Source: Escherichia coli | GTDB taxonomy: Bacteria > Pseudomonadota > Gammaproteobacteria > Enterobacterales > Enterobacteriaceae | Direction: 5' to 3' (one strand) | NCBI RefSeq assembly: GCF_024700885.2 | Contig: NZ_CP117016.1 | DNA length: 64,000 nucleotides | Program-made: the position numbers and the translations under genes | Shown here: in pieces, positions 18,202 to 22,767 of the stretch | How positions within the stretch are numbered: the stretch's first letter is position 1 | How the letters are laid out: each line of letters starts with the position of its first letter | Notes under the pieces: generated by a model | The model's database searches: none | Told to the model about the DNA's origin: nothing | The model's input: only the letters and a program-made list of their open reading frames with translations

Positions 18202-18945
18202 ATGACCACACCAAATCCACTGGCAAAAACGAAAGGTGCGGGAACGACGTTCTGGATGTACACCGGCAAGGGCGATGCGTTTGCGAACCCTTTATCGGAC
18301 ACTGACTGGCTGCGTCTTGCGATGGTGAAGGATCTGCAACCTGGCGAAATGACCGCTGATGCAGAAGATGACACTTATCTCGATGATGAAGATGCAGACT
18401 GGAAAACGACAACCCAGGGGCAGAAATCCGTCGGTGATACTTCGGCGACGCTGGCCTGGCGTCCGGGTGACAGCGGACAGAAAAAACTGGTTCAGTTGTT
18501 CGACTCCGGTGAAGTCTGCGCGTTTCGTATCAAATATCCCAACGGCACTGTTGATGTTTTCCGTGGCTGGCTGAGCTCACTGGGTAAAACCATTGCCTCA
18601 AAAGACGTGATGACCCGCACCGTGAAAATCAGCGGTGTGGGGCGTCCGTATCTGGCAGAGGAAGGCACTGAAACAGTGAGCGTTACCGGGCTGACGGTGG
18701 CACCGGCATCTGCCAGTGTAAAAGTGGGAGCAACCACCACGCTGACCTTTACAGTAAAACCTGACGGAGCCAGTGACAAAGCGATCAGTGTGCATTCGAC
18801 AGATCCACAGACTGCCACGGTGACCCTGAACGGGCTTGTGGCCACGGTGAAAGGCGTGAAGCAGGGCAGTGTCAGCATTGTGGGCATGACTTCTGACGGC
18901 GATTTTGTGGCAGTGGCTGCGGTGGCTGTCAGCGCCGCAGGTTAA
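18202..18945 (+). CDS. Major tail protein V with C-terminal Ig-like domain
   Basis: RBS AGGAGGTGG; gpV-like N-terminal region; C-terminal Big_2-like segment (VTGLTVAPASASVKVGATTTLTFTVKP). Confidence 0.8.
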   Translation: MTTPNPLAKTKGAGTTFWMYTGKGDAFANPLSDTDWLRLAMVKDLQPGEMTADAEDDTYLDDEDADWKTTTQGQKSVGDTSATLAWRPGDSGQKKLVQLFDSGEVCAFRIKYPNGTVDVFRGWLSSLGKTIASKDVMTRTVKISGVGRPYLAEEGTETVSVTGLTVAPASASVKVGATTTLTFTVKPDGASDKAISVHSTDPQTATVTLNGLVATVKGVKQGSVSIVGMTSDGDFVAVAAVAVSAAG

Positions 18946-18966
18946 CAGGACGCTACTCATCATTTG

Positions 18967-18990
18967 CCCCGGTTATCCGGGGCTTTTTTG
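18967..18990 (+). terminator. Hairpin plus T-run between V and G (partial terminator candidate)
   Basis: CCCCGGttatCCGGGG followed by CTTTTTTG. Confidence 0.5.
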
Positions 18991-19005
18991 CAGGTGGAGA
19001 ACATG

Positions 19006-19392
19006 ATGTTTCTGAAACAGGGCACGTTTAATTATGAAAAGCAGTCCGTGGTGCTCAGTGAGCTGTCCGGGCTGCAGAGAATTGAATATCTGGCGTTTGT
19101 TCAGCAGCGAACGGCAAAGTTTGATGCCGAAGAGGGAGAACTGCCGGAGGCTGAACGACAGATTGCTTTTCTGCGGATGGGGATGGATATCAATGCCTGG
19201 CTGGTTTCCCGCTCACTGTGGAATGCGGAACAGTCTCAGGATGTTGAGACGCTTTGCGCATCCGTTATTACAACATGGTCGTATGATGCCCTGGGAGCGG
19301 GGGCGGAGATGGTTCTGTCGCTGAGCGGTATGGGAGCCATTGAGAATGCCGGGGATTTGGAGCATGAGGTGCTGACGCCGGAAAAGTCCTGA
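19006..19392 (+). CDS. Tail assembly chaperone G
   Basis: MFLKQ...VVLSELSGLQRIEYLAF parallels the lambda G N-terminus (MFLKTE...VTLSELSALQRIEHLAL). Confidence 0.7.
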   Translation: MFLKQGTFNYEKQSVVLSELSGLQRIEYLAFVQQRTAKFDAEEGELPEAERQIAFLRMGMDINAWLVSRSLWNAEQSQDVETLCASVITTWSYDALGAGAEMVLSLSGMGAIENAGDLEHEVLTPEKS

Positions 19393-19730
19393 CGCGGGAA
19401 ATGCAGTTTGTCATGCGGCTTGCCCGGGAGTTCCGGCGGGCAGACTGGCGGCGGATGCTGTCGGAAATGTCGGCCACTGAGCTTGGTGAGTGGGGCGATT
19501 ATTTCCGGATGCAGAGCTTCAGTGATGTGTGGATGGATGCGCAGTTTGCCTCGCTGAAGGCATTGATCGTGAGAATGGTGTCCGGTAGCAGTGATGCTGC
19601 GGTGGCTGATTTCAGCCTTTTACCGGAAGAGAACGGGATACCGGAGCGAACGGACGAAGAACTGATGCATCTTGGGGAAGGTATTTCCGGAGGTGTGCGT
19701 TATGGACCAGATAGCCAACCTGGTCATTGA
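19006..19730 (+). CDS. Tail assembly chaperone GT (G-T fusion by -1 programmed frameshift near 19380-19386)
   Basis: T-frame ORF is open in the -1 frame across the end of G; candidate slippery heptamer GGAAAAG just before the G stop. Confidence 0.5.
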
Positions 19731-22700
19731 TTTGGGGATTGATGCGGCAGAGTTTAAAAATGAAATTCCCCGTATCAAAAACCTTCTGAATGGTGCAGCC
19801 AGCGATGCAGAACGGTCTTCTGCCCGTATGCAGCGTTTTATGGAGCGTCAGACTCAGGCCGCCCGGCAGACAATGCAGGCGGCTTCTTCGGCTGCAACAG
19901 CCGCATCCGTCCATGCGCAGACGGTGGAGAAGAGCGCACAGGCTCATGAACGCATGGCCCGCGAGGTGGAGCAAACCCGCCAGCGTATGGAGGCACTGAG
20001 CCAGAAAATGCGCGAGGAACAGGCGCAGGCCATGGCTCTGGCGGAGGCTCAGGATAAAGCGGCTGCCGCGTTTTATCGTCAGATTGACAGTGTGAAACAG
20101 GCCAGTGCGGGGCTGCAGGAATTACAGCGTATTCAGCAGCAGATCCGACAGGCCAGAAACAGTGGCGGGATTGGTCAGCAGGATTATCTGGCGCTGATTT
20201 CTGAGGTTACGGCGAAAACCCGTGTTCTTACGCAGGCTGAGGCAGAGGCTACCCGACAGAAAGTGGCGTTTATCCGTCAGCTTAAAGAGCAGGCAACCCG
20301 CCAGAATCTTTCTTCTTCTGAGTTGCTTCGTGCTAAGGCTGCCCAGCTGGGGGTAAGCAGTGCTGCAGAAGTGTATATCCGCAAAATGGAGCAGGCAGGA
20401 AAAGCCACACATTCGCTGGGTCTGAAAAGTGCAGCGGCCCGCCAGGAGATAGGCGTTCTGATAGGTGAACTGGCTCGCGGCAATTTAGGTGCGCTGAGGG
20501 GATCCGGGATAACGCTGGCTAACCGTGCCGGATGGATAGACACACTGATGTCACCGAAAGGCATGATGCTGGGCGGGGTTATTGGCGGTATTGCCGCGGC
20601 CGTCTATGGTCTGGGTAAAGCCTGGTATGATGGTCAGAAGGAGGGGGAAGAATTTAACCGCCAGTTGTCGCTGACGGGGCATTATGCCGGAGTCACTGCC
20701 GGGCAGCTGTGGACGCTCAGTCGTGCTATTTCCGGGAATGGTATTACGCAACATGCTGCAGCCGGTGCGCTGGCTCAGGTGGTGGGGAGTGGTGCATTTC
20801 GTGGAAACGATATCGGTATGGTGGCGAGAGCTGCCGCACAGATGGAGCGATCGGTTGGCCAGTCGGTCAGCGATACCATAAATCAGTTTAAGCGGCTGAA
20901 GGATGATCCTGTAAATGCCGCGAAGGCTCTGGACAATGAGCTGCATTTTCTTACTGCCACTCAGCTTGAGCAGATACGCGTCCTTGGGGAACAGGGGCGG
21001 TCCAGTGATGCGGCACGGATAGCCATGTCTGCACTGGCAGAGGAAACCGGTCGGCGTACTGCGGATATTGATAATAACCTCAATGCGCTGGGCAGTACGC
21101 TGAAGTATCTGTCTGATTTATGGAGTCGTTTCTGGGATGCGGCCATGAATATTGGTCGTGAAGACTCGCTGGATGAACAGATTGCCGCTTTACAGGAGAA
21201 AGTGTCGCGGGCGAAAAGACTCCCCTGGACGGCATCATCTTCTCAGGTTGAATACGATCAGCAGCGTCTTAACGATCTTCAGGAGAAAAAACGCCAGAAG
21301 GATTTGCAGGATGCAAAAGAGCAGGCAGAGCGGAATTATCAGGAGCAACAGAAACGCCGTAATGCTGAAAATGCTGCACTGAACCGGATGAATGAAACGG
21401 AAGCAGCACGACATCAGCGTGAAATTGCGCGTATTAATGCCATGCAGTACGCCGATCAGGCTGTCAGGGATGCGGCGATACAACGTGAAAATGAACGTTA
21501 CGAGAAAGCCCTGGCATCCGGTAAGAAAAAAACACGCGAACCCCGTAATGATGAGGCCACCCGGTTATTGCTGCAGTACAGTCAGCAACAGGCACAGGTG
21601 GAAGGACAGATTGCTGCTGCCAGACAGTCAGCAGGCATTGCCACGGAAAGGATGACAGAAGCGCATAAACAGCTTCTGGCTCTGCAGCAGCGCATCAGCG
21701 ACCTGGACGGGAAAAAACTGACGGCAGATGAAAAGAGTGTGCTGGCCCGTAAAGATGAACTGATTCAGGCACTGACGCTGCTGGATGTAAAACAGCAGGA
21801 GCTTCAGAAACAGACGGCACTCAACGAGCTGAAGAAAAAAACAATTCAGCTGACCAGTCAACTGGCTGAAGAAGAGCGCGCTCAGCGTCAGCAACATGAC
21901 CTGGATATCGCCACGGTGGGTATGGGTGATCAGCAGCGGCAGCGATATCAGGTACAACTGAGTCTTCGCCAGAAATACCAGCAACAGCTGGAGCAGTTGA
22001 GGCGGGATAGTGAGCAGAAAGGAACATATAACACGGATGACTACAGAAAGGCCGAGCAGGCGCTGACGGAGAGCCTGAACCGACAACTGAATGAGAATCG
22101 CCGTTACTGGCAACAGCTTGAAGTTGTGCAGGGTAACTGGAAAAACGGAGTCCTGCGTGCATTTCAGGATTTTACCGTGGATGCAGATAATACGGCAGGA
22201 ACAGCAGAACAGGTGTTCTCGTCAGCCTTCAGCAACATGGGAAATGGCCTGGCAACTTTTGTCACTACCGGCAAACTCAATTTCAAATCCTTCACCTCTT
22301 CTGTGCTGTCAGATATGGCGAAAATCCTGGCGCAGGCAACCATGATGAAATCGATAAAAGGGATTGGCAGTGTACTGGGATTTGATCTCAGCAGCCTTTC
22401 CCTGAATGCCAATGGGGGGATTTATCAGTCTGCTGATTTGAGTCGTTACAGTGGCACGGTGGTTAACCGTCCGACGTTTTTTGCTTTTGCAAAAGGCGCG
22501 GGTGTGATGGGGGAAGCTGGACCTGAAGCCATTCTGCCACTGCGTCGTGATGCTGACGGTAAGCTGGGGGTTGTGGCGGATATTGGTGGTTCAGGTATGG
22601 CGATGTTTGCCCCGCAGTACAACATAGAGATCAATAACGATGGCACGAACGGGCAGATAGGTCCGGCTGCCCTGAAGGTGGTTTATGACCTCGGGAAAAA

Positions 22701-22767
22701 AGCAGCAGCGGACTTTATGCAACAGCAGGCCCGTGATGGTGGTCGGTTAAGTGGAGCATATCGGTAA
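19702..22767 (+). CDS. Tail tape measure protein H
   Basis: 1021 aa, coiled-coil-rich Ala/Gln/Arg sequence; RBS GGAGG; position after G/T. Confidence 0.85.
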   Translation: MDQIANLVIDLGIDAAEFKNEIPRIKNLLNGAASDAERSSARMQRFMERQTQAARQTMQAASSAATAASVHAQTVEKSAQAHERMAREVEQTRQRMEALSQKMREEQAQAMALAEAQDKAAAAFYRQIDSVKQASAGLQELQRIQQQIRQARNSGGIGQQDYLALISEVTAKTRVLTQAEAEATRQKVAFIRQLKEQATRQNLSSSELLRAKAAQLGVSSAAEVYIRKMEQAGKATHSLGLKSAAARQEIGVLIGELARGNLGALRGSGITLANRAGWIDTLMSPKGMMLGGVIGGIAAAVYGLGKAWYDGQKEGEEFNRQLSLTGHYAGVTAGQLWTLSRAISGNGITQHAAAGALAQVVGSGAFRGNDIGMVARAAAQMERSVGQSVSDTINQFKRLKDDPVNAAKALDNELHFLTATQLEQIRVLGEQGRSSDAARIAMSALAEETGRRTADIDNNLNALGSTLKYLSDLWSRFWDAAMNIGREDSLDEQIAALQEKVSRAKRLPWTASSSQVEYDQQRLNDLQEKKRQKDLQDAKEQAERNYQEQQKRRNAENAALNRMNETEAARHQREIARINAMQYADQAVRDAAIQRENERYEKALASGKKKTREPRNDEATRLLLQYSQQQAQVEGQIAAARQSAGIATERMTEAHKQLLALQQRISDLDGKKLTADEKSVLARKDELIQALTLLDVKQQELQKQTALNELKKKTIQLTSQLAEEERAQRQQHDLDIATVGMGDQQRQRYQVQLSLRQKYQQQLEQLRRDSEQKGTYNTDDYRKAEQALTESLNRQLNENRRYWQQLEVVQGNWKNGVLRAFQDFTVDADNTAGTAEQVFSSAFSNMGNGLATFVTTGKLNFKSFTSSVLSDMAKILAQATMMKSIKGIGSVLGFDLSSLSLNANGGIYQSADLSRYSGTVVNRPTFFAFAKGAGVMGEAGPEAILPLRRDADGKLGVVADIGGSGMAMFAPQYNIEINNDGTNGQIGPAALKVVYDLGKKAAADFMQQQARDGGRLSGAYR

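What the first reader, a model, noticed from the sequence alone, without database searches (positions are those of the whole stretch)
19370..19410. Programmed -1 frameshift site joining tail chaperones G and T
The T reading frame (ending 19730) is open in the -1 frame across the last codons of G. The heptamer GGAAAAG (19380-19386) lies immediately before the G stop codon (19390-19392), analogous to the lambda G/GT slippery sequence GGGAAAG. Slippage would yield GT reading ...TP then GKVLTREMQFVMRL....
Basis: partly seen in the sequence, partly recalled or inferred. Interest (0 to 1): 0.3.

Follow-up and report, generated by a model that had tools for sequence, protein, structure and literature searches.

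The report
Lambda-type G/GT tail chaperone frameshift site
This is the expected ribosomal −1 frameshift site that fuses the two tail-assembly chaperone genes (G and T) of a lambda-like E. coli prophage; it is real and strongly conserved but an ordinary, already-described kind of signal, its only twist being a slightly imperfect slippery sequence (GGAAAAG instead of lambda's GGGAAAG).

Summary
G (19003/19006–19392; lambda gpG family) ends at TGA 19390–19392. The T frame is −1 relative to G and open from 19368 to 19730. The overlap is 25 nt, and its only slip candidate is G_GAA_AAG (19380–19386).

The site lies at the position homologous to lambda's G_GGA_AAG. The predicted 242-aa fusion aligns colinearly with lambda gpGT (E 4e-42).

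Every relative recovered by protein homology with an intact G–T junction keeps a slip heptamer there. That covers 21 unique junction sequences in this clade (mEp460, cdtI, Ayreon, Gifsy-1/-2, Fels-1) and 38 in the LLS/Klebsiella clade. Flanking synonymous sites vary, while T's ATG (19401) is rarely conserved.

GenBank already annotates GGAAAAG as the −1 frameshift site in phage LLS, and Gifsy-1/-2 T genes as frameshift products.

- The heptamer is not canonical X_XXY_YYZ. P-site tRNA-Glu re-pairs GAA→GGA with a middle G·U.
- The junction is more likely …TPEK|VLTRE… than …TP|GKVL….
- No conserved stimulatory structure was found. The upstream GAGGTG is lineage-specific.

Verdict: real, already known in kind, low interest. 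Efficiency is unmeasured.

The parts
18202..18945 (+). Major tail tube gene V (context, upstream neighbour). The mechanical ORF begins at GTG 18196; the annotated start in relatives corresponds to 18202.
   Evidence: Pfam Phage_TTP_12 6e-67 plus Big_2. Annotated as major tail protein in Ayreon, mEp460 and PGAP.
18966..18989 (+). Intrinsic-terminator-like hairpin (7 G-C pairs, then T6) between V and G. Context only; not part of the frameshift signal.
   Evidence: Found by the terminator scan. Annotated as a terminator in Ayreon and mEp460.
19003..19392 (+). Gene G, tail assembly chaperone (129 aa from ATG 19003; PGAP starts it at the second ATG, 19006). Stop is TGA 19390-19392.
   Evidence: Pfam PF06894 Phage_TAC_2 1.8e-39. 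TIGR01674 phage_lambda_G equivalog, 188 bits against a cutoff of 74. Translation.
19365..19367 (+). Last stop codon (TGA) in the T frame upstream of T. It sets the 5' limit of where the shift can occur.
19366..19371 (+). GAGGTG, a Shine-Dalgarno-like hexamer 8 nt upstream of the heptamer. A possible stimulator, but lineage-specific.
   Evidence: Pairs with the 16S 3' end at -9.3 kcal/mol; chance P about 0.04. Weak or absent in Gifsy, Fels and LLS lineages.
19380..19386 (+). Slip heptamer G_GAA_AAG, where the -1 ribosomal frameshift takes place.
   Evidence: It is the only candidate in the 25-nt overlap. It is invariant across all homologous junctions. It lies at the position homologous to lambda's G_GGA_AAG. 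The same heptamer is annotated as the PRF site in phage LLS.
19386..19730 (+). T segment, the -1 frame part of GT (114 codons plus stop). Predicted GT is join(19003..19386, 19386..19730), 242 aa.
   Evidence: Pfam PF06223 Phage_tail_T 5e-15. TIGR01715 phage_lam_T equivalog, 134 bits against a cutoff of 77. The fusion is colinear with lambda gpGT, E 4e-42.
19401..19403 (+). ATG used by annotators as the T start. It most likely encodes an internal Met of GT, homologous to an internal Leu of lambda gpGT.
   Evidence: It aligns with Leu in lambda, Gifsy-1, Fels-1 and LLS. It is present in only 11 of 69 unique junction contexts, and 43 of 69 have no start codon within 20 codons. The SD-like signal upstream is weak, -4.3 kcal/mol.
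19702..22767 (+). Tape measure gene H (context, downstream neighbour). It overlaps the T end by 29 nt, and its strong SD, GGAGGTG, lies inside T.
   Evidence: Pfam TMP_2 2.7e-49 and Tape_meas_lam_C 3e-22. SD energy -13.2 kcal/mol.

Best explanation
This is the G/GT programmed -1 ribosomal frameshift of a lambda-like E. coli prophage of the mEp460/cdtI/Ayreon type.

Most ribosomes translate G (19003-19392) and terminate at TGA 19390, making the chaperone gpG. A minority slip back one nucleotide on G_GAA_AAG (19380-19386). This happens with tRNA-Glu on GAA in the P site and tRNA-Lys on AAG in the A site. tRNA-Lys re-pairs perfectly with AAA. tRNA-Glu re-pairs with GGA through a G-C, a middle G·U and an A-U pair.

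Translation then continues in the -1 frame from GTC (19386) to 19730. The product is a fusion of about 242 aa, gpGT, with the junction ...TPEK|VLTREMQF....

By homology with lambda, the G part binds the tape measure protein H and the T part recruits the tail tube protein V. The low GT:G ratio is set by the slip efficiency.

Shown here: the anatomy, the homology, and conservation of the heptamer but not of T's ATG. Inferred: that slippage occurs, its tandem two-tRNA mechanism, its efficiency, and the function of the products.
For: Family and synteny:
- G is in the lambda gpG family and T in the lambda gpT family.
- The gene order is V-G-T-H-M-L-K-I.

Anatomy:
- T is -1 relative to G, with a 25-nt overlap whose only slip candidate is G_GAA_AAG.

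Homology of the site:
- The Lys codon of the heptamer is one of 19 invariant columns in a 7-lineage gpG alignment. It aligns with the Lys of lambda's G_GGA_AAG.
- The predicted fusion aligns with lambda gpGT in a single ungapped-at-junction HSP, E 4e-42.

Conservation of a slip heptamer at this position in every homologue checked that has an intact G-T junction:
- G_GAA_AAG in all 21 unique junctions of this clade at 54-100% G identity.
- G_GAA_AAG in 38 of 38 unique junctions of the LLS/Klebsiella clade.
- G_GGA_AAG in lambda, Stx2a phages and PhiR12; A_AAA_AAG in CP-1639.

Selection on the nucleotide sequence:
- Flanking synonymous sites vary, but CCG GAA AAG never does.
- The base before GAA is always G, although the codon carrying it encodes Pro, Ala or Val. 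This fits selection on the whole heptamer.

T has no conserved start:
- 43 of 69 contexts have no start codon; the 19401 ATG is a Leu codon in most lineages.
- The T-frame residues between the heptamer and 19401 (K-V/A-L-x-x-E) are nevertheless conserved.

Public annotation and literature:
- Phage LLS annotates 'minus-one programmed translational frameshift site GGAAAAG' with a joined CDS.
- Gifsy-1 and Gifsy-2 T genes are annotated as frameshift products.
- A_AAG is the most shift-prone tetramer in E. coli (PMC4066793).
- Infectious phages (Ayreon, mEp460, cdtI, Tritos) carry the same junction.
Against: - No protein-level or reporter evidence is available for this heptamer in its natural context.
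- In a reconstituted E. coli system, AUG GAA AAG gave mainly the 0-frame product with wild-type EF-G and served as the poorly slippery control (PMC6924986).
- The A_AAG tetramer alone is only marginally above background without a stimulator (PMC4066793).
- No conserved stimulator was found. The downstream fold has z = -0.17 and the alignment covariation term is +0.31. The upstream SD-like GAGGTG is not conserved.
- In this lineage an ATG lies 8 nt after the G stop, so some free T made by re-initiation cannot be excluded.
Confidence: 0.88

Rival explanations
1. The shift is real, but it is a single-tRNA event on the A_AAG tetramer rather than a tandem two-tRNA slip on the heptamer. In this reading tRNA-Lys slips AAG to AAA in the A site, or in the P site while the next codon (UCC) awaits its tRNA. 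The product is the same.
For: - P-site GAA to GGA re-pairing has a second-position mismatch, and PMC6924986 treats G GAA AAG as a sequence on which only one tRNA can slip.
- A_AAG is the best tetramer motif in E. coli and is used naturally by IS3 (PMC4066793).
- The 3' context AAG-YCC-U is almost invariant in G_GAA_AAG lineages: 68 of 69 have C at +2. That could reflect a role for the next codon.
Against: - The nucleotide before GAA is always G across codons for Pro, Ala and Val. In CP-1639 it is A, matching A_AAA_AAG. A pure tetramer mechanism does not predict that.
- The GAA codon never changes to the synonymous GAG.
- Tetramers need strong stimulators, and none was found.
Confidence: 0.25
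2. T is made only as a separate 109-aa protein from its own ATG at 19401, by initiation or termination-reinitiation after the G stop. There is no functional frameshift.
For: - An ATG lies 8 nt downstream of the G stop, with a weak GGGA upstream at -4.3 kcal/mol.
- PGAP and most phage records annotate T as a separate gene from this ATG.
Against: - The ATG is a Leu codon (CTG or CTT) in Gifsy-1, Fels-1, Gifsy-2, LLS and lambda. It is present in only 11 of 69 unique junctions, and 43 of 69 have no start codon within 20 codons.
- T-frame residues upstream of it are conserved.
- The slip heptamer is invariant at synonymous sites.
- The phrog_32165 profile spans both the G and T parts of the protein.
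- In lambda, T function requires tethering to G (established knowledge: Levin 1993; Xu 2013 and 2014, as cited in PMC5009743).
Confidence: 0.06
3. The fusion arises by transcriptional slippage: RNA polymerase adds or removes an A in the A4 run. Alternatively, the arrangement is a decaying or pseudogenised remnant with no recoding.
For: A run of four A residues lies in the site. Some prophage copies do carry disrupted T frames, L030 and L034-L036.
Against: - Established knowledge is that transcriptional slippage needs much longer homopolymer runs, about 7 or more. The A4 run never lengthens in any lineage.
- The junction is identical in infectious phages and in 1,847 of 5,426 complete E. coli genomes.
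- The -1 relationship and the overlap are kept at 31-100% protein identity.
Confidence: 0.03

Closest known systems
Bacteriophage lambda G/GT -1 programmed frameshift (slip site G_GGA_AAG; Levin, Hendrix & Casjens 1993; Xu, Hendrix & Duda 2004, 2013, 2014, as cited in PMC5009743)
   Same: - Same protein families: TIGR01674 and PF06894 for G, TIGR01715 and PF06223 for T.
- Same gene order, V-G-T-H.
- Same -1 relationship between the frames.
- The slip site is at the homologous codon pair, with the Lys codon AAG aligned.
- The fusion is colinear with gpGT, 34% identity and E 4e-42.
   Different: - The heptamer differs at its third base (GGAAAAG against GGGAAAG). The P-site tRNA is therefore tRNA-Glu rather than tRNA-Gly, and it re-pairs with a middle G·U instead of a cognate pair.
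- The G stop follows after 1 codon instead of 5.
- The overlap is 25 nt instead of 64 nt.
- T is shorter: 114 codons after the slip against 144 in lambda.
Escherichia phage LLS (PQ299149) genes 11/12, and relatives (Klebsiella Kp4865-4, Phi06_2987)
   Same: - Identical heptamer G_GAA_AAG at the homologous position.
- LLS carries an explicit GenBank misc_feature, 'minus-one programmed translational frameshift site GGAAAAG', and a joined CDS.
- All 38 unique junctions of that clade use the heptamer.
   Different: - G is only about 33-35% identical.
- The preceding codon is GCG or GTG rather than CCG.
- The G tail after the slip is 1 or 5 codons long.
- There is no SD-like GAGG upstream.
Gifsy-1, Gifsy-2 and Fels-1 prophages of Salmonella Typhimurium LT2
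   Same: - Same clade: 54-57% G identity and about 68-70% DNA identity.
- Identical CCG GAA AAG xCC TGA junction.
- Gifsy-1 and Gifsy-2 T genes are annotated as 'part of tail assembly chaperone by translational frameshifting'.
   Different: No ATG at the position of 19401 (CTG or CTT instead), and a weaker upstream SD-like sequence.
E. coli dnaX and IS3-family -1 frameshift sites (A_AAA_AAG; the A_AAG tetramer in IS3)
   Same: They rely on the single E. coli tRNA-Lys (anticodon mnm5s2UUU) slipping from AAG to AAA. dnaX also uses an upstream SD-like stimulator at comparable spacing (PMC4066793, PMC6924986).
   Different: These are unrelated genes. dnaX and the IS elements have strong downstream hairpins or pseudoknots and high efficiencies. 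No such structure is supported here.

Membership tests
Lambda-type G/GT tail assembly chaperone frameshift | The upstream ORF is a gpG-family tail assembly chaperone. | tested here: met
   PF06894, 1.8e-39. TIGR01674 equivalog, 188 bits against a cutoff of 74. phrog_42, 1e-51.
Lambda-type G/GT tail assembly chaperone frameshift | The downstream segment is a gpT-family sequence. | tested here: met
   PF06223, 5e-15. TIGR01715 equivalog, 134 bits against a cutoff of 77, with the full profile 1-111 matched. phrog_39, 8e-43.
Lambda-type G/GT tail assembly chaperone frameshift | The pair lies between the major tail tube gene and the tape measure gene. | tested here: met
   V at 18202-18945 and H at 19702-22767, both with Pfam support.
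Lambda-type G/GT tail assembly chaperone frameshift | T is in the -1 frame relative to G and overlaps its 3' end. | tested here: met
   The G frame has position mod 3 = 1 and the T frame mod 3 = 0. The T frame is open from 19368 and the G stop is at 19390-19392.
Lambda-type G/GT tail assembly chaperone frameshift | A conserved slippery sequence lies inside the overlap, at the position homologous to lambda's. | tested here: met
   G_GAA_AAG at 19380-19386 aligns with lambda's G_GGA_AAG. It is invariant in all relatives, and its synonymous sites are frozen.
Lambda-type G/GT tail assembly chaperone frameshift | T lacks its own conserved translation start. | tested here: met
   43 of 69 unique junctions have no ATG, GTG or TTG within 20 codons. 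The equivalent of ATG 19401 is present in 11 of 69 and is Leu in lambda, Gifsy and LLS.
Lambda-type G/GT tail assembly chaperone frameshift | A GT fusion protein is made at a few percent of G and is required for tail assembly. | not testable with these tools
   This needs a western blot, mass spectrometry or a reporter, plus phage genetics. The only indirect support is that infectious phages carry the identical junction.
Canonical X_XXY_YYZ tandem-slippage heptamer | Positions 1-3 are identical and positions 4-6 are identical, so both tRNAs re-pair at their non-wobble positions. | tested here: not met
   Positions 1-3 are G, G, A. tRNA-Glu would move from GAA to GGA, a second-position G·U (PMC6924986). 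The A-site half, A_AAG, does conform. The site fits the non-canonical 'twofour' class listed by PRFect (PMC10885494).
Stimulated bacterial -1 PRF (dnaX / IS3 type) | A downstream hairpin or pseudoknot 5-9 nt after the slip site, supported by conservation or covariation. | tested here: not met
   The fold of 19387-19470 has z = -0.17. A 10-lineage RNAalifold gives a covariation term of +0.31, and the only nearby helix is 4-5 bp starting 1-2 nt after the heptamer. Rfam gives no hit.
Stimulated bacterial -1 PRF (dnaX / IS3 type) | An upstream Shine-Dalgarno-like element 6-17 nt before the slip site. | tested here: inconclusive
   GAGGTG at 19366-19371 pairs at -9.3 kcal/mol, with 8 nt spacing and chance P about 0.04. 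It is strong only in some lineages (L102 has AAGGAGGTG). It is weak in Gifsy and Fels and absent in the LLS clade.

The most novel reading that the evidence does not exclude
G_GAA_AAG may be a deliberately 'detuned' natural slip site, not a degenerate copy of lambda's. Two large clades of enterobacterial lambdoid prophages keep it, including a copy in about a third of complete E. coli genomes.

Its efficiency would depend on a middle-position G·U re-pairing by tRNA-Glu. Both slipping tRNAs (Glu-UUC and Lys-UUU) carry mnm5s2U34. The GT:G ratio, and therefore phage yield, would then be more sensitive than lambda's to the host's Tus/MnmA thiolation state.

Efficiency might also be modulated by the near-invariant 3' context AAG-YCC-U, or in this lineage by the upstream GAGGTG.

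If this is right, a sequence that biophysicists use as a non-slippery control would be a physiologically tuned recoding signal.
Probability: 0.25. Interest if true: 0.4.

Novelty: already known. Interest (0 to 1): 0.13.

Why it matters
The practical value is for annotation. RefSeq/PGAP and most phage records split this locus into separate 'G' and 'T' genes and start T at a non-conserved ATG. The biologically relevant product is most likely the joined GT protein, join(19003..19386, 19386..19730). The same correction would apply to at least about 1,850 complete E. coli genomes.

Scientifically it adds little. The G/GT frameshift is a textbook case, and this heptamer is already annotated as a −1 frameshift site in phage LLS.

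One modest point may interest recoding specialists. Large natural clades conserve G_GAA_AAG, a heptamer with a P-site second-position mismatch that has been used experimentally as a poorly slippery control.

Tried and rejected
- **Downstream stimulatory RNA structure.** I folded 19387–19470 and got z = −0.17. RNAalifold on 10 lineages gave no covariation support. The GC-rich hairpin at about 19422–19441 starts 35 nt after the slip site and is broken in Gifsy-1. Rejected.
- **Rfam.** A scan of 18900–19800 returned only a chance hit at E = 0.89.
- **Upstream SD-like stimulator.** GAGGTG is present here, but it is not conserved across lineages. I kept it only as a lineage-specific possibility.
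- **Another slip site in the overlap.** There is none. No X_XXY_YYZ or other A_AAG/U_UUY motif occurs in 19368–19392.
- **Other GGAAAAG copies in the window as further frameshift sites.** None has the required ORF configuration.
- **HK97.** I fetched it as a comparison, but its chaperone genes did not appear to belong to this family, so it was not used.
- **Xu, Hendrix & Duda 2004 (Mol Cell).** The paper is not held in the library. I could not check whether it lists GGAAAAG.
- **Literature search for 'G GAA AAG'.** This found only PMC6924986.
- **Solved structures.** A PDB sequence search with the GT fusion gave no hit.

Full report
**1. Observation**

- An ORF from ATG 19003 (or the adjacent ATG 19006) runs to TGA 19390–19392. 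Its last codons are GTG CTG ACG CCG GAA AAG TCC TGA.
- The frame one nucleotide back (−1) has its last upstream stop at TGA 19365–19367. It then stays open to the stop ending at 19730.
- The two frames therefore overlap by only 25 nt, 19368–19392.
- GGAAAAG lies at 19380–19386 in the register G_GAA_AAG. An ATG in the −1 frame sits at 19401.
- No other slip-type motif is present in the overlap.

**2. What the genes are**

- The upstream ORF is a lambda gpG-family tail assembly chaperone: PF06894 at 1.8e-39, and the TIGR01674 equivalog at 188 bits against a cutoff of 74.
- The −1 frame segment is a lambda gpT-family sequence: PF06223 at 5e-15, and the TIGR01715 equivalog at 134 bits against a cutoff of 77.
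- The PHROG profile phrog_32165 (290 positions) matches G on positions 1–119 and T on positions 136–252. That family therefore spans both parts.
- The neighbours are the tail tube gene V (18202–18945) and the tape measure gene H (19702–22767), followed by ORFs in the positions of lambda M, L, K and I.
- The DNA is 99.9% identical to phage Ayreon and 97–99% identical to mEp460, cdtI, Tritos and others.
- It occurs in 1,847 of 5,426 complete E. coli genomes.
- None of the three close phage records or the PGAP record I inspected joins G and T. PGAP, Tritos and mEp460 start T at the ATG corresponding to 19401, and Ayreon starts it further downstream.

**3. Is the heptamer more than chance?**

- In the window's own genes, in-frame G_GAA_AAG occurs at 5 of 18,385 codon positions. 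The chance of one falling in a 25-nt overlap is about 0.002. For any in-frame A_AAG the figure is about 0.016.
- Of the 16 GGAAAAG copies on both strands of the window, only this one has a long upstream ORF, a 0-frame stop within three codons and a −1 frame continuing for more than 100 codons.

The comparative evidence is stronger.
- Loci were retrieved purely by gpG protein homology. Every one that retains an intact G–T junction keeps CCG GAA AAG (T/C)(C/T)(C/A) TGA. This holds for 21 unique junction sequences from about 70 IMG/VR and phage loci. Two truncated loci and one rearranged locus could not be scored. The set extends down to Gifsy-1, Gifsy-2 and Fels-1 at 54–57% protein identity and about 68–70% DNA identity.
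- I aligned G codons across 10 lineages. Of 33 columns with an invariant, degenerate amino acid, only 7 use the same codon in all lineages. Three of those seven are the consecutive CCG, GAA and AAG.

**4. Homology of the slip position across the family**

- In protein alignments, the Lys encoded by AAG is one of only about 19–24 invariant gpG columns. It aligns with the Lys of lambda's G_GGA_AAG.
- More distant relatives carry a slip heptamer at the same place:
  - G_GGA_AAG in lambda, Stx2a phages and PhiR12;
  - A_AAA_AAG in CP-1639;
  - G_GAA_AAG in LLS, Klebsiella phage Kp4865-4 and Phi06_2987.
- A second homology-based collection, seeded on LLS gpG, gave 38 unique junctions at 46–98% identity. 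All 38 carry G_GAA_AAG.
- The base preceding GAA is always G, although it is the third position of Pro (CCG), Ala (GCG) or Val (GTG) codons. Neighbouring third positions vary freely.
- That pattern is what selection on the whole heptamer would produce, because the first position G pairs with C36 of tRNA-Glu after the slip. Selection on A_AAG alone would not produce it.

**5. T has no conserved start of its own**

- The ATG at 19401 corresponds to Leu codons (CTG or CTT) in Gifsy-1, Fels-1, Gifsy-2, LLS and lambda.
- Among 69 unique GGAAAAG junction contexts, 43 have no ATG, GTG or TTG in the T frame within 20 codons of the slip site. Only 11 have the ATG equivalent to 19401.
- The T-frame residues between the heptamer and 19401 (K-V/A-L-x-x-E) are nevertheless conserved, with third-position variation. 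That indicates translation of this stretch in the T frame.
- The SD-like signal before 19401 is weak, at −4.3 kcal/mol. The comparable values are −7.2 for G and −13.2 for H.

**6. The predicted product**

- Joining 19003..19386 with 19386..19730 gives a 242-aa protein.
- It aligns with lambda gpGT in one HSP across the junction: 34% identity over 251 positions, E 4e-42. EVLTPEKVLTREMQFVMRLARE lies opposite EPVSAGKVFDGELSFALKLARE.
- Under the standard model, the 0-frame codons are decoded first and then both tRNAs slip. This is established for lambda (Levin et al. 1993, as cited in PMC5009743 and PMC3296357).
In lambda the two readings are indistinguishable. Here they differ by Glu against Gly.

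**7. Mechanism and its weak points**

The A-site half, A_AAG, is the most shift-prone tetramer in E. coli. The single tRNA-Lys (mnm5s2UUU) pairs better with AAA than with AAG (PMC4066793).

The P-site half is non-canonical. tRNA-Glu moves from GAA to GGA, which leaves a G·U at the middle position.
- Peng et al. used exactly AUG GAA AAG as their less slippery control and saw mainly 0-frame product with wild-type EF-G (PMC6924986).
- Sharma et al. found that A_AAG alone is only marginally above background without a stimulator, and reaches 5.6% with the IS3 pseudoknot.

I therefore looked for stimulators.
- Downstream structure: the fold of 19387–19470 is no more stable than shuffled sequences (z = −0.17). 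A 10-lineage consensus fold has a positive (unfavourable) covariation term. Rfam finds nothing.
- Upstream: GAGGTG (19366–19371) is a perfect 6-nt match to the anti-SD, at −9.3 kcal/mol, 8 nt before the heptamer. That spacing lies within the 6–17 nt range searched by Sharma et al. Chance probability is about 0.04.
- The upstream element is even stronger in one lineage (AAGGAGGTG). It is weak in Gifsy and Fels and absent from the LLS clade. It cannot be a family-wide requirement.

My conclusion is that the site is probably a low-efficiency slip that needs no dedicated structure, as in lambda (about 4%, PMC3296357). The actual efficiency is unknown.

A single-tRNA slip on A_AAG remains a live variant of the mechanism. 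The near-invariant 3' context AAG-YCC-U is unexplained.

**8. Comparison with what is known; novelty**

- The site meets every testable defining feature of the lambda G/GT frameshift. It fails only the strict X_XXY_YYZ rule.
- The same heptamer is explicitly annotated in GenBank for phage LLS, as 'minus-one programmed translational frameshift site GGAAAAG' with a joined CDS.
- T genes of the same clade (Gifsy-1 and Gifsy-2) are annotated as frameshift products.
- PRFect lists XXYYYY ('twofour') motifs and the idea of G:U re-pairing among non-canonical tail-chaperone slip sites (PMC10885494).
- The conserved G-T frameshift of long-tailed phages is textbook knowledge (PMC5009743).

I therefore rate it as already known. 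Its practical consequence is a missing joined CDS in many annotations. Its one small scientific curiosity is the natural conservation of a heptamer regarded as poorly slippery.

**9. Limits**

- Nothing here demonstrates the fusion protein or measures the shift.
- Xu, Hendrix & Duda 2004 could not be read. Whether it already tabulates this heptamer is unknown to me.
- Lineage counts are of unique sequences, not independent evolutionary events.

Noticed in passing
window 18966-18989 (+): A strong intrinsic-terminator-like hairpin (GCCCCGG-TTAT-CCGGGGC followed by TTTTTT) sits between the major tail gene V and G. It is annotated as a terminator in Ayreon and mEp460. It might act as a partial terminator that lowers G/T/H expression relative to V.
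   Followed up: partly
window 19387-19390, and the same position in 69 unique related junctions: In all G_GAA_AAG lineages the four bases after the heptamer are almost invariant: YCCT, with C at the second base in 68 of 69. That base is a four-fold degenerate third position in the T frame. Lambda-type G_GGA_AAG lineages have NNTT instead. The cause could be dual-coding constraint or a 3' context effect on slippage; I did not resolve which.
   Followed up: partly
window 19686-19704: The tape measure gene H starts at ATG 19702, inside T, with a 29-nt overlap. Its very strong SD, GGAGGTG (-13.2 kcal/mol), is encoded by the conserved C-terminal GGVRYG motif of T. Lambda gpGT ends with the same GGVRYG motif.
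   Followed up: partly
L030 (about 1888-2000); L034, L035 and L036 (about 1888-2075): Some IMG/VR prophage copies have single-base indels inside T. One has an extra G in CGGCGGGGCAG and others have lost a base in GGTGAGGGGGCG. These truncate the T frame to 37 or 62 codons. They are either decaying prophages or sequencing errors in homopolymers.
   Followed up: no
window 14305-16524 (+): A single 739-aa ORF upstream of the tail genes. Its counterpart in Ayreon is annotated as 'ClpP protease-like protein/scaffold protein'. Its length suggests a fused protease-scaffold-capsid gene. I did not analyse it.
   Followed up: no
L055 and L114 (IMGVR_UViG_2558860274_000012), G at about 1501-1731 in L055: One relative has a G gene that matches only residues 1-90 and then diverges into a different C-terminus (...LWKSI*), with a 230-codon -1 ORF. 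It is probably a recombinant or rearranged locus. It lacks the GGAAAAG junction.
   Followed up: no
window about 1-32000 versus 33000-64000: The lambda-like prophage structural module occupies roughly the first half of the window, on the + strand. The remainder has mixed-strand ORFs that look like host chromosome. No tRNA gene was found anywhere in the window. I did not map the prophage boundary or attachment site.
   Followed up: no
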